Position numbers and translations under genes: made by a program
In this document: positions 8,169 through 15,173 of the stretch, piece after piece
How the letters are laid out: each line of letters opens with the position of its first letter
Position numbering within the stretch: the first letter of the stretch is position 1
DNA from: Escherichia coli O157:H7
Lineage (GTDB): Bacteria; Pseudomonadota; Gammaproteobacteria; Enterobacterales; Enterobacteriaceae
Reading direction: 5' to 3' (one strand)
Assembly (NCBI RefSeq): GCF_013167455.1
Contig: NZ_CP038328.1
Length of the DNA stretch: 64,000 bases
Notes under the pieces: generated by a model
What the model saw: the letters and a program-made list of their open reading frames with translations, nothing else
What the model was told of the DNA's origin: nothing
Databases searched by the model: none

Positions 8169-9428
8169 ATGACGGAACAAGAAAAAACCTCCGCCGTGGT
8201 TGAAGAGACCAGGGAGGCCGTGGACACCACGTCACAACCTGTCGCAACAGAAAAAAAGAGTAAGAACAATACCGCATTGATTCTCAGCGCGGTGGCTATC
8301 GCTATTGCTCTGGCGGCGGGCGTCGGTTTGTATGGCTGGGGTAAACAACAGGCCGTCAATCAGACCGCCACCAGCGATGCCCTGGCTAACCAACTGACGG
8401 CATTGCAAAAAGCCCAGGAGAGCCAAAAAGTCGAGCTGGAAGGCATTATTAAGCAACAAGCTGCACAGCTTAAGCAGGCGAATCGTCAGCAAGAAACGCT
8501 GGCAAAACAGTTGGATGAAGTCCAACAAAAGGTCGCCACCATTTCCGGCAGCGATGCTAAAACCTGGCTGCTGGCTCAGGCCGATTTTCTGGTGAAACTC
8601 GCCGGACGGAAGCTGTGGAGCGATCAGGACGTCACGACCGCTGCAGCGTTGCTGAAAAGTGCAGACGCCAGCCTGGCGGATATGAATGACCCGAGTCTGA
8701 TTACCGTTCGTCGGGCAATTACCGATGATATCGCCAGCCTTTCTGCAGTATCGCAGGTGGATTATGACGGCATCATCCTTAAGCTTAATCAGCTTTCAAA
8801 TCAGGTAGATAACCTGCGTCTGGCCGATAATGACAGCGATGGTTCGCCGATGGATTCCGACGGTGAAGAGCTTTCCAGTTCCATCAGCGAATGGCGTATC
8901 AATCTGCAAAAAAGCTGGCAGAACTTTATGGACAACTTCATTACGATTCGCCGTCGTGATGACACCGCCGTACCGCTGTTAGCGCCAAATCAGGATATCT
9001 ATCTGCGCGAAAATATTCGCTCTCGCCTGCTGGTCGCAGCACAAGCTGTACCGCGTCACCAGCAAGAGACTTATCGCCAGGCGCTGGAGAACGTCTCCAC
9101 CTGGGTACGTGCTTACTACGATACTGATGATGCCACCACCAAAGCGTTCCTCGACGAGGTAGACCAGTTAAGCCAGCAAAATATCTCGATGGATCTTCCG
9201 GAAACCCTGCAAAGCCAGGCGATGCTGGAAAAACTGATGCAGACTCGCGTGCGTAACCTGCTGGCACAACCGGCAGCGGGGACAACGGAAGCTAAACCTG
9301 CACCTGCACCTGCACCTGCACCTGCACCTGCACCTGCACCTGCACCTGCACCTGCACCTGCACCTGCACCTGCACCTGCACCTGCACCGCAAGCTGATAC
9401 TCCGGCAGCCGCGCCGCAAGGAGAATAA
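8169..9428 (+). CDS. hemX: HemX membrane protein with expanded C-terminal (Pro-Ala)15 tract
   Basis: 419-aa [21 protein letters not shown]..., single TM segment, coiled-coil rich; C-terminal PA repeat. Confidence 0.88.
9297..9386 (+). repeat. Perfect hexanucleotide microsatellite (CCTGCA)15, in frame within hemX
   Basis: 15 uninterrupted CCTGCA units read directly from the sequence, codon-aligned to hemX (cct gca = Pro-Ala). Confidence 0.95.
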
Positions 9429-9430
9429 CC

Positions 9431-10627
9431 ATGCTAAAAGTGTTATTGCTCTTTGTGTTGCTGATTGCGGGGATCGTGGTTGGCCCGATGATTGCCGGTC
9501 ATCAGGGTTATGTGCTGATCCAGACCGACAACTACAATATCGAAACCAGCGTCACGGGCCTGGCGATCATATTGATTCTGGCGATGGTAGTGCTGTTTGC
9601 CATTGAGTGGCTACTGCGGCGGATCTTCCGCACTGGCGCGCACACCCGTGGGTGGTTTGTCGGGCGTAAGCGTCGCCGTGCACGTAAGCAGACCGAACAG
9701 GCGCTGCTGAAACTGGCGGAAGGCGATTATCAGCAAGTTGAAAAGCTGATGGCGAAAAATGCCGATCACGCTGAACAACCGGTGGTGAACTATCTACTGG
9801 CTGCCGAAGCCGCGCAACAACGTGGTGATGAAGCGCGCGCCAACCAACATCTGGAACGCGCAGCGGAGCTGGCCGGCAATGACACCATTCCGGTAGAAAT
9901 CACCCGTGTACGTCTGCAACTGGCCCGTAATGAAAACCATGCTGCACGCCACGGCGTGGATAAGCTGCTGGAAGTTACGCCACGCCATCCGGAAGTATTA
10001 CGTCTGGCGGAACAGGCGTATATCCGCACAGGTGCATGGAGTTCGCTGCTGGATATTATCCCATCAATGGCGAAAGCCCATGTTGGTGATGAAGAACATC
10101 GTGCAATGCTGGAACAACAGGCATGGATTGGCCTGATGGATCAGGCGCGTGCCGATAACGGTAGCGAAGGTTTGCGTAACTGGTGGAAAAACCAAAGCCG
10201 GAAAACGCGTCATCAGGTAGCGTTGCAGGTGGCAATGGCGGAACATCTTATTGAATGTGACGATCATGATACTGCCCAGCAAATTATCATCGATGGCCTG
10301 AAACGCCAGTACGACGATCGCCTACTGCTGCCGATTCCTCGACTGAAAACAAACAATCCGGAACAGCTGGAAAAAGTGCTGCGCCAGCAAATCAAAAACG
10401 TCGGCGATCGCCCGCTGTTGTGGAGCACACTGGGCCAGTCACTGATGAAGCACGGAGAATGGCAGGAAGCATCGCTCGCCTTCCGCGCAGCGCTGAAACA
10501 ACGTCCGGACGCCTACGATTACGCATGGCTTGCCGACGCGCTGGACAGACTGCACAAGCCGGAAGAAGCTGCAGCGATGCGTCGCGACGGTTTGATGTTA
10601 ACGTTGCAGAACAACCCACCACAGTAG
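9431..10627 (+). CDS. hemY: HemY protein (TPR-containing inner-membrane protein)
   Basis: 398-aa ORF MLKVLLLFVLLIAGIVVGPMIAGHQGYVLIQTDNYNIE...; 2-nt gap after hemX. Confidence 0.9.
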   Translation: MLKVLLLFVLLIAGIVVGPMIAGHQGYVLIQTDNYNIETSVTGLAIILILAMVVLFAIEWLLRRIFRTGAHTRGWFVGRKRRRARKQTEQALLKLAEGDYQQVEKLMAKNADHAEQPVVNYLLAAEAAQQRGDEARANQHLERAAELAGNDTIPVEITRVRLQLARNENHAARHGVDKLLEVTPRHPEVLRLAEQAYIRTGAWSSLLDIIPSMAKAHVGDEEHRAMLEQQAWIGLMDQARADNGSEGLRNWWKNQSRKTRHQVALQVAMAEHLIECDDHDTAQQIIIDGLKRQYDDRLLLPIPRLKTNNPEQLEKVLRQQIKNVGDRPLLWSTLGQSLMKHGEWQEASLAFRAALKQRPDAYDYAWLADALDRLHKPEEAAAMRRDGLMLTLQNNPPQ

Positions 10628-14510: not shown

Positions 14511-14587
14511 TGGTCGGCGAGAGAGGATTCGAACCTCCGACCCACTGGTCCCAAACCAGTTGCGCTACCAAGCTGCGCTACTCGCCG
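14511..14587 (-). tRNA. proM: tRNA-Pro (anticodon UGG)
   Basis: 77-nt reverse-complement match to canonical E. coli tRNA-Pro incl. encoded CCA. Confidence 0.95.
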
Positions 14588-14629
14588 AAATACTGCTTTT
14601 TGAATTTTTAGTTCAATTCTTTAAAGTCG

Positions 14630-14716
14630 TGGTGCGAGGGGGGGGACTTGAACCCCCACGTCCGTAAGGACACTAACACCTGAAGCTAGCGCGTCTACCA
14701 ATTCCGCCACCTTCGC
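14630..14716 (-). tRNA. leuT: tRNA-Leu (anticodon CAG), distal copy
   Basis: 87-nt match to E. coli tRNA-Leu(CAG) with long variable arm and CCA. Confidence 0.93.
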
Positions 14717-14736
14717 ATTGTCACAACTTCTAATAA

Positions 14737-14813
14737 TGGGGTGGCTAATGGGATTCGAACCTCCGACCCACTGGTCCCAAACCAGTTGCGCTACCAAGCT
14801 GCGCTACTCGCCG
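14737..14813 (-). pseudogene. Chimeric tRNA-like element: tRNA-Pro(UGG) 5' body fused at the T-loop to the tRNA-His 3' T-stem/acceptor strand
   Basis: Read 5'->3' on minus strand: CGGCGAGTAGCGCAGCTTGGTAGCGCAACTGGTTTGGGACCAGTGGGTCGGAG (proM-identical) + GTTCGAATCCCATTAGCCACCCCA (hisR-identical); acceptor and T stems no longer base-pair. Confidence 0.85.
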
Positions 14814-14855
14814 AAATACTGCTTTTTGAATTTTTAGTTCAATTCTTTAAAGTCG

Positions 14856-14942
14856 TGGTGCGAGGGGGGGGACTTGAACCCCCACGTCCGTAAGGACACT
14901 AACACCTGAAGCTAGCGCGTCTACCAATTCCGCCACCTTCGC
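14856..14942 (-). tRNA. leuT: tRNA-Leu (anticodon CAG), proximal copy
   Basis: Identical 87-nt sequence to the copy at 14630-14716. Confidence 0.93.
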
Positions 14943-14962
14943 ATTGTCACAACTTCTAATAA

Positions 14963-15039
14963 TGGGGTGGCTAATGGGATTCGAACCCACGACAACTGGA
15001 ATCACAATCCAGGGCTCTACCAACTGAGCTATAGCCACC
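14963..15039 (-). tRNA. hisR: tRNA-His (anticodon GUG)
   Basis: 77-nt match to E. coli tRNA-His incl. extra 5' G(-1) and CCA. Confidence 0.95.
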
Positions 15040-15096
15040 ACTACAAATCTTGTTACGCGGTATTACTACCACCGCAGCTCAAGCGCCGGGACTAAA

Positions 15097-15173
<77 letters not shown>

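What the first reader, a model, noticed from the sequence alone, without database searches (positions are those of the whole stretch)
9297..9386. In-frame (CCTGCA)15 microsatellite encoding a (Pro-Ala)15 tract at the HemX C-terminus
Fifteen perfect hexanucleotide repeats are an unusually long simple-sequence tract for an E. coli core gene. A 6-nt unit preserves the reading frame under slipped-strand mispairing, so this is a plausible length-variable (VNTR-like) locus. HemX here is 419 aa, while I recall the K-12 protein as roughly 393 aa, which would match fewer repeat units. The PA-rich linker lies just before the short C-terminal tail.
Basis: partly seen in the sequence, partly recalled or inferred. 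Interest (0 to 1): 0.5.

Follow-up and report, generated by a model that had tools for sequence, protein, structure and literature searches.

The report
Known hemX VNTR (MLVA locus CVN014)
The 15-copy CCTGCA repeat at the end of the E. coli hemX gene is real and varies in length between strains. It is the already-described typing marker CVN014, so it is an ordinary known microsatellite that adds Pro-Ala pairs to a floppy protein tail.

Summary
Window 9297-9386 is (CCTGCA)15 with no mismatch, in frame in hemX (8169-9428, 419 aa), and encodes (Pro-Ala)15 at residues 377-406.

The published primers of CVN014, from the generic E. coli MLVA scheme, match the window exactly at 9273-9292 and 9450-9473. 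They give a 201-bp amplicon, and (201-111)/6 = 15. Papers call CVN014 the most polymorphic locus of that scheme.

Across 5,425 complete E. coli genomes, hemX length changes in steps of 6 bp:
- The range is 0 to 25 units and the median is 6.
- O157:H7 strains have 5 to 17 units.
- Fifteen units lies in roughly the top 2%.
- In 14 loci read base by base, the arrays were perfect and differed only in copy number. One strain has lost the tract entirely.

The tract lies after the HemX Pfam domain, in a tail that AlphaFold leaves unstructured. That tail is unconserved in length and sequence across the family.

Best explanation: replication slippage in a near-neutral, in-frame microsatellite. Novelty: already known. 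Interest is low.

The parts
8169..9428 (+). hemX coding sequence (419 aa including the repeat; stop TAA at 9426-9428)
   Evidence: ORF list. Pfam HemX PF04375 covers aa 130-363, E = 5.7e-108. NCBIfam NF008173 scores 719.6 bits against a cut-off of 313. Annotated hemX in all matching RefSeq genomes.
9297..9386 (+). (CCTGCA)15 perfect hexanucleotide VNTR, codons 377-406, encoding (Pro-Ala)15; this is the variable core of MLVA locus CVN014
   Evidence: Exact string match, TRF, and copy-number polymorphism across genomes.
9273..9292 (+). Binding site of published CVN014 primer R (GCAGCRGGGACAACGGAAGC)
   Evidence: Exact match, none expected by chance. Primer sequence taken from PMC8143711 and PMC8261245.
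9450..9473 (-). Binding site of published CVN014 primer F (TCCCCGCAATCAGCAAMACAAAGA), inside the start of hemY
   Evidence: Exact match. Amplicon 9273-9473 is 201 bp, and the published formula (PS-111)/6 gives 15.
9387..9425 (+). Invariant 13-codon tail [13 protein letters not shown] that follows the repeat
   Evidence: Sequence. The QGE end is kept in Citrobacter and Salmonella orthologues.
9418..9423 (+). AAGGAG, the likely Shine-Dalgarno of hemY, lying inside the last hemX codons (Q-G-E) and 7 nt before the hemY ATG
   Evidence: Read directly from the sequence. Its role as a ribosome-binding site is inferred.
9431..10627 (+). hemY coding sequence, starting 2 nt after the hemX stop; its distance from the repeat is constant in all alleles
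   Evidence: ORF list and RefSeq annotation.

Best explanation
The tract is a hexanucleotide microsatellite (VNTR) in the 3' end of the core gene hemX. It is the same locus as CVN014 of the generic E. coli MLVA typing scheme. Copy number changes by slipped-strand mispairing during replication. Because the array is perfectly homogeneous, a nascent strand can re-anneal out of register by whole units, which gains or loses 6n bases. Three mechanistic points are inferred rather than shown. First, six-base loops are larger than the insertion/deletion loops that MutS-dependent mismatch repair corrects efficiently (established knowledge: up to about 4 nt), so slips would persist. Second, the unit contains the self-complementary TGCA, so single strands can form imperfect hairpins that may stabilise slipped intermediates. 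Third, because the unit is two codons, every slip only adds or removes Pro-Ala pairs. The changes fall in an unstructured, poorly conserved tail downstream of the folded HemX domain, on the predicted periplasmic side. They are therefore close to neutral, and copy number drifts freely between and within clones. Shown here: the identity with CVN014, the polymorphism, the in-frame nature, the position outside the domain, and natural alleles from 0 to 25 units. Inferred: the slippage mechanism, escape from mismatch repair, neutrality, and the periplasmic location.
For: The CVN014 primers match exactly and the amplicon arithmetic gives 15. Papers describe CVN014 as a 6-bp locus and the most variable or most polymorphic of the scheme: Nei's D is 0.83 with a range of 4-15 in non-O157 STEC, and 2-11 within ST131. 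In 14 of 14 loci read directly, the arrays are uninterrupted CCTGCA and differ only in copy number. In an evenly spaced sample of 60 of the 5,425 genomes the median is 6, and 15 allele lengths (14 copy numbers plus the tract-deleted allele) give D of about 0.89 (my arithmetic). The maximum seen is 25, and 1,228 of 5,425 genomes have 9 or more units. Within the young O157:H7 clone the counts are 5 (Sakai), 6, 7, 8, 9, 15, 16 and 17. The hemX ORF is intact in every allele. The HemX domain ends at aa 363. AlphaFold gives pLDDT above 90 for most of 130-366, but no secondary structure and pLDDT 55-66 for 367-419. In 133 family representatives the post-domain tail is 0-118 aa (median 13), low-complexity and unconserved. 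Strain NCTC11023 lacks the whole tract plus 7 more codons. The same GCACCT/CCTGCA unit occurs at the same position in Citrobacter gillenii and C. rodentium. The single strands fold into TGCA-stem hairpins of -17.6 and -21.4 kcal/mol.
Against: No mutation rate was measured for this locus here. The rates I read (4e-5 to 2e-3 per generation) are for other O157 6-bp VNTRs. Neutrality is argued only from tolerance of 0-25 units. The distribution (median 6, few alleles above 17) could also reflect weak selection or a length-dependent mutation bias. Most copy numbers come from BLAST span lengths rather than direct counts. No read-level data were available.
Confidence: 0.93

Rival explanations
1. The (Pro-Ala)n tract is a functional, semi-rigid spacer. 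Its length would tune how far the conserved C-terminal end of HemX reaches across the periplasm, so copy-number variation would be adaptive tuning of an envelope protein.
For: Pro-Ala repeats are known to form extended, stiff segments in envelope proteins (general knowledge: OmpA hinge, TonB). HemX is a bitopic membrane protein with a conserved two-hybrid interaction with the division protein YhcB/ZapG (PMC8163987). It is regarded as a distant Mic60 relative (bioRxiv 10.1101/2022.06.14.496148). The last residues, APQGE, are conserved among enterobacteria.
Against: Only 13 residues follow the tract and AlphaFold predicts no structure there, so it links no second domain. Natural isolates span 0-25 units, including complete loss. 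Closely related strains differ widely. Salmonella and most family members lack the tract. Conservation of QGE is more simply explained by the overlapping hemY Shine-Dalgarno AAGGAG.
Confidence: 0.05
2. The 15-unit length is a sequencing or assembly expansion, and the true allele is shorter.
For: Simple repeats can be mis-assembled, and the exact 419-aa protein is absent from the 15-billion-protein collection.
Against: The tract is only 90 bp, which single reads can span. Four independent complete assemblies from the UK and Japan carry the identical 15-unit allele. Other O157:H7 genomes have 16 and 17 units, and other lineages reach 25. MLVA by PCR has independently reported CVN014 alleles up to 15.
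Confidence: 0.01
3. The repeat is a contingency (phase-variation) locus that switches or modulates expression of hemX or of the downstream, translationally adjacent hemY.
For: It is a hypermutable simple-sequence repeat 44 nt upstream of the hemY start. Its RNA or DNA can form a long imperfect hairpin whose stability grows with copy number.
Against: The unit is a multiple of three, and all sampled alleles keep hemX in frame, so no ON/OFF switch is possible. The spacing between the repeat end, the Shine-Dalgarno and the hemY ATG is identical in all alleles. No effect on expression was tested.
Confidence: 0.01

Closest known systems
CVN014, a locus of the generic E. coli MLVA scheme (Lindstedt et al. 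2007; GECM-7/GECM-10)
   Same: It is the same locus. Both published primers match the window exactly and flank the repeat. The unit is 6 bp, and the published offset of 111 bp gives exactly 15 units for the 201-bp amplicon. The polymorphism seen in genomes matches the reports that this is the most variable locus of the scheme.
   Different: Nothing differs structurally. This allele (15 units) is at the upper end of reported ranges: 4-15 in non-O157 STEC and up to 12 in Swedish ESBL isolates. The open-access papers I could search do not name the gene. No paper in the library links hemX with VNTR or MLVA in E. coli.
E. coli O157:H7-specific MLVA loci (TR1-TR7 / Vhec / O157-n)
   Same: Most are 6-bp units that vary within the O157:H7 clone by slippage, with measured rates of about 4e-5 to 2e-3 per generation (PMC3777172).
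   Different: They are different loci. Their units are AAATAG, TGGCTC, TATCTT, TGCAAA, AAGGTG, an 18-mer and GACCAC. None of the TR1-TR7 primers occurs in the window. I could not obtain the units or primers of O157-37 and the Japanese EHC loci.
In-frame hexanucleotide VNTRs of Salmonella MLVA (for example STTR5 in yohM)
   Same: They are the same kind of element: a 6-bp in-frame coding microsatellite in a chromosomal gene, used for typing (general knowledge; scheme discussed in PMC5183578).
   Different: They lie in a different gene and species. Salmonella hemX itself lacks the Pro-Ala tract (tails ...TASTEAPATRAAAPQGE).
Pro/Ala-rich extended segments of envelope and multidomain proteins (OmpA hinge, TonB, lipoyl-domain linkers of E2p)
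   Same: They share the composition (alternating Pro-Ala) and the expected extended, non-globular conformation (general knowledge). AlphaFold gives coil with low confidence here.
   Different: Those segments connect two folded or functional parts and have a fairly constant length. Here only 13 residues follow, and length varies from 0 to 50 residues among strains.

Membership tests
MLVA locus CVN014 (generic E. coli MLVA) | Flanked by the published CVN014 primer pair | tested here: met
   Exact matches at 9273-9292 (+) and 9450-9473 (-), with none expected by chance. Primers are from PMC8143711 and PMC8261245.
MLVA locus CVN014 (generic E. coli MLVA) | 6-bp unit; amplicon = 111-bp offset + 6n | tested here: met
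   201 bp = 111 + 15 x 6. The formula also gives whole numbers 1, 2, 6, 8, 10, 11, 12, 13 and 16 for eleven other strains read directly.
VNTR (variable-number tandem repeat) | Copy number differs between strains of the species | tested here: met
   0 to 25 units across 5,425 complete genomes, with 15 allele lengths in an evenly spaced sample of 60.
VNTR (variable-number tandem repeat) | Ongoing instability within a clone (recurrent slippage) | tested here: inconclusive
   O157:H7 genomes carry 5, 6, 7, 8, 9, 15, 16 and 17 units, and ST131 isolates carry 2-11 (PMC3407997). This strongly suggests recurrent change. No mutation rate or phylogenetic mapping was done here.
Contingency / phase-variable simple-sequence repeat | Slippage shifts the reading frame or promoter spacing so that expression switches ON/OFF | tested here: not met
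   The unit is two codons, and every sampled allele leaves hemX intact and the hemY start region unchanged.
Inter-domain Pro/Ala-rich linker | Connects two folded domains | tested here: not met
   The Pfam domain ends at aa 363. AlphaFold shows no secondary structure from 367 to the end. Only 13 residues follow the tract.
HemX family (Pfam PF04375; NCBIfam NF008173) | Full-length match to the family profile above its threshold | tested here: met
   PF04375 E = 5.7e-108. NF008173 scores 719.6 bits against a cut-off of 313.
Uroporphyrinogen-III C-methyltransferase (the product name in RefSeq) | A recognisable methyltransferase domain or fold | tested here: not met
   Pfam finds only HemX and weak coiled-coil or low-complexity hits. 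PDB sequence and fold searches give nothing significant. The name appears to be historical. Enzymatic activity cannot be tested with these tools.

The most novel reading that the evidence does not exclude
The number of Pro-Ala pairs could set the length of an extended periplasmic tether at the C-terminus of HemX. HemX is a Mic60-like, YhcB/ZapG-interacting inner-membrane protein of unknown function. Under this reading the hypervariable repeat would be a heritable, quickly reversible tuner of an envelope or division property, not neutral drift. A long allele such as 15 units in some O157:H7 lineages would then have a measurable phenotype.
Probability: 0.05. Interest if true: 0.45.

Novelty: already known. 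Interest (0 to 1): 0.12.

Why it matters
There is little new biology here. The tract is a validated typing marker, and its behaviour (in-frame slippage in a tolerant protein tail) is textbook.

The practical points are modest:
- CVN014 can be read directly from assemblies as (hemX length - 1170)/6. This held for all but one of the loci read directly.
- The window's strain carries an unusually long allele (15 units, about the top 2%). Only three other listed O157:H7-type genomes share the identical allele.
- Analyses that align hemX without handling the repeat may produce artefacts. One PAML scan ranks hemX as by far the top 'positively selected' gene in E. coli (PMC9110714). I suspect this reflects the VNTR, but I did not test it.

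Tried and rejected
- **O157-specific MLVA loci.** The units of TR1-TR7 differ, and none of their primers occurs in the window. I could not obtain the units or primers of O157-37 and the EHC loci, so a second name for the locus in those schemes is not excluded.
- **Literature searches.** Searches for hemX with VNTR, MLVA or uroporphyrinogen found only an unrelated SNP in Salmonella hemX. A search for the unit sequence with O157 gave nothing relevant.
- **Exact look-up of the 419-aa protein.** It is not in the 15-billion-protein collection. This says nothing about whether the allele is real, because RefSeq genomes carry it.
- **Minus-strand ORF 9168-9419 (83 aa, '(RC)n').** This is a mechanical by-product of the repeat inside a well-supported plus-strand gene and was rejected.
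- **PDB searches for HemX.** The sequence search gave only a low-complexity hit to a ribosomal protein tail. Foldseek gave no match with E below 0.1. There is no structural lead to function.
- **Phase variation and inter-domain linker readings.** Both were tested and not met (see the membership test).

Full report
**1. The observation**

Window 9297-9386 is exactly CCTGCA repeated 15 times. Tandem Repeats Finder reports 9296-9388, period 6, 15.5 copies, 100% matches. No other simple repeat in the 64-kb window comes close.

The tract lies in the ORF 8169-9428 (+), 419 aa. The offset from the start codon is divisible by three, so the units are read as CCT GCA. The protein ends ...TEAK(PA)15[13 protein letters not shown].

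The ORF is HemX. Pfam PF04375 covers residues 130-363 with E = 5.7e-108. NCBIfam NF008173 scores 719.6 bits against a cut-off of 313. The neighbours are hemC, hemD and hemY. The window is E. coli O157:H7, and hemX is 100% identical to strain Z885.

**2. It is a VNTR, and a known one**

A megablast of hemX against 5,426 complete E. coli genomes found the gene in 5,425. Spans differed in steps of 6 bp, from 1155 to 1266 bp in the first sample.

I fetched 13 loci and read them. In every case the array is an uninterrupted run of CCTGCA and the flanks are collinear. The counts are:

| Units | Strain |
|---|---|
| 1 | H2 |
| 2 | K-12 (1182 bp = 393 aa) |
| 6, 8 | two further isolates (EC20; 38A23CPO011) |
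| 8 | EC4115 |
| 9 | O145:H28 RM13516 |
| 10, 11, 12, 12, 13 | five further isolates |
| 16 | ZH48 |

Strain NCTC11023 has lost the whole tract plus seven more codons and ends ...[12 protein letters not shown].

None of the O157-specific MLVA loci TR1-TR7 has this unit, and none of their primers is in the window. However, the primers of locus CVN014 of the generic E. coli MLVA scheme (listed in PMC8143711 and PMC8261245) match the window exactly, at 9273-9292 (+) and 9450-9473 (-). The amplicon is 201 bp. The published conversion (product size - 111)/6 gives 15, and it gives whole numbers for all the other loci that contain both primer sites. The finding is therefore CVN014.

Papers describe CVN014 as the most variable or most polymorphic locus of that scheme:
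- Nei's D is 0.83 with a range of 4-15 units in non-O157 STEC.
- ST131 isolates carry 2-11 units.
- It showed the largest variation among Swedish ESBL isolates.

**3. How unusual is 15?**

I used a synthetic query with 39 units, so that BLAST ranking rises with copy number.
- The 60 top genomes carry 25, 23, 22, 21 (5 genomes), 20 (4), 19 (7), 18 (6), 17 (21) and 16 (at least 14) units.
- The evenly spaced sample of the same ranking acts as a quantile function. The median is 6, and 15 units sits at about rank 92 of 5,425, roughly the top 2%.
- 1,228 genomes (22.6%) have 9 or more units.
- The 15 allele lengths in 60 genomes (14 copy numbers plus the tract-deleted allele) give a diversity index of about 0.89 (my arithmetic).

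Within O157:H7 I saw 5 (Sakai, hemX 1200 bp), 6, 7, 8, 9, 15, 16 and 17 units. This is wide variation inside a young clone.

Four complete genomes share the window's exact 15-unit allele (Z885, Z887, Z1626, CEC13002). An assembly artefact is therefore very unlikely, although I could not look at reads. Apart from the 14 loci read directly, copy numbers are derived from BLAST span lengths.

**4. Where the tract sits in the protein**

The HemX domain ends at residue 363. An AlphaFold model built on 61 diverse homologues (mean pLDDT 79.8) shows three regions:
- one long helix at 36-126, comprising the membrane span and a coiled coil;
- a confidently predicted helical domain at 130-366;
- no secondary structure from 367 to 419, with pLDDT 55-66.

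In 133 representatives of the family, the stretch after the domain is 0-118 residues long (median 13), low in complexity and unconserved.

Close relatives have short Pro/Ala-rich tails ending in QGE. Citrobacter gillenii and C. rodentium carry four to five copies of the same GCACCT/CCTGCA unit at the same place. Salmonella does not. The seed of the microsatellite therefore predates E. coli or arises easily.

The conserved terminal Q-G-E codons contain AAGGAG at 9418-9423, 7 nt before the hemY ATG at 9431. I read this as hemY's ribosome-binding site, which would explain their conservation without any role for the tail (sequence; the reading is inference).

**5. Mechanism**

*Shown:* a perfectly homogeneous 6-bp array; gains and losses only in whole units; the ORF always intact; tolerance of 0-25 units in nature; and a position outside the folded domain.

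*Inferred:* copy number changes by slipped-strand mispairing at replication. Six-base loops are poor substrates for MutS-dependent repair (established knowledge). The self-complementary TGCA in each unit lets single strands form imperfect hairpins that may stabilise slipped intermediates. The predicted energies are -17.6 and -21.4 kcal/mol for the two strands, against -7.9 and -15.2 for shuffles. The resulting Pro-Ala gains and losses are close to neutral.

Mutation rates of about 4e-5 to 2e-3 per generation have been measured for other 6-bp O157 VNTRs, rising for alleles longer than about 13 units (PMC3777172). No rate is available to me for CVN014 itself.

**6. Rivals**

- **Functional spacer.** This cannot be excluded. 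HemX has no known function, and nothing in Pfam or the PDB supports its 'methyltransferase' name. It has a conserved two-hybrid interaction with YhcB/ZapG and is considered a distant Mic60 relative. Against this reading, the tract links no second domain, is absent from most of the family, can be deleted in nature, and differs widely between close relatives.
- **Phase variation.** This is ruled out by the two-codon unit and the constant hemY start region.
- **Assembly artefact.** This is very unlikely for the reasons given in section 3.

**7. Verdict**

The feature is already known as CVN014 and is ordinary in kind. Interest is low.

Noticed in passing
window 14511-15173 (- strand); repeat 14525-14987: There is a perfect 226-bp tandem duplication inside the argX-hisR-leuT-proM tRNA operon. 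It gives six tRNA genes (Arg, His, Leu, Pro, Leu, Pro) instead of four. In an evenly spaced sample of complete E. coli genomes, only the first 3 of 40 rows (O157:H7 and its kin) have the 951-bp duplicated form. The next 36 rows have a ~725-bp single copy (723-725 bp) and the last is only a partial hit. The duplication is annotated in the Sakai reference genome as leuT1, tRNA51, leuT2, proM2. It is therefore a known trait of the O157:H7 lineage.
   Followed up: yes
hemX, window 8169-9428 (literature): [quoted passage not shown] Given the hypervariable in-frame repeat, I suspect this is an alignment artefact of the VNTR. I did not test it.
   Followed up: no
L012 (NCTC11023) 401-1555, corresponding to window 9297-9407: This is a natural hemX allele of 1155 bp in which the entire Pro-Ala tract plus the next seven codons are deleted. 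The tail reads ...[12 protein letters not shown] and the junction lies at a shared CC dinucleotide. It shows the tract is dispensable in at least one isolate.
   Followed up: partly
P0001 (485 aa, ENA contig) and P0061 (413 aa, Salmonella Berta): Two HemX proteins in the public collection carry larger in-frame tandem duplications. In P0001, roughly 80 residues (HQEETYRQ...TEAKPA) are duplicated, with the junction at the start of the Pro-Ala tract, and its second tract has a Thr interruption. In P0061, 24 residues are duplicated just after the membrane span. I could not tell whether these are real or assembly artefacts.
   Followed up: no
hemX, window 8169-9428: RefSeq names the product 'uroporphyrinogen-III C-methyltransferase'. 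However, no methyltransferase domain is detected: Pfam finds only HemX, described as 'putative'. No solved structure resembles the AlphaFold model, with the best Foldseek E-value at 0.14. The name looks historical and the function remains unknown.
   Followed up: partly
E. coli genome collection: One of about 5,429 hemX-hemY matches lies on a record labelled as a plasmid, and one of the 5,426 genomes has no match at all. Neither was examined.
   Followed up: no
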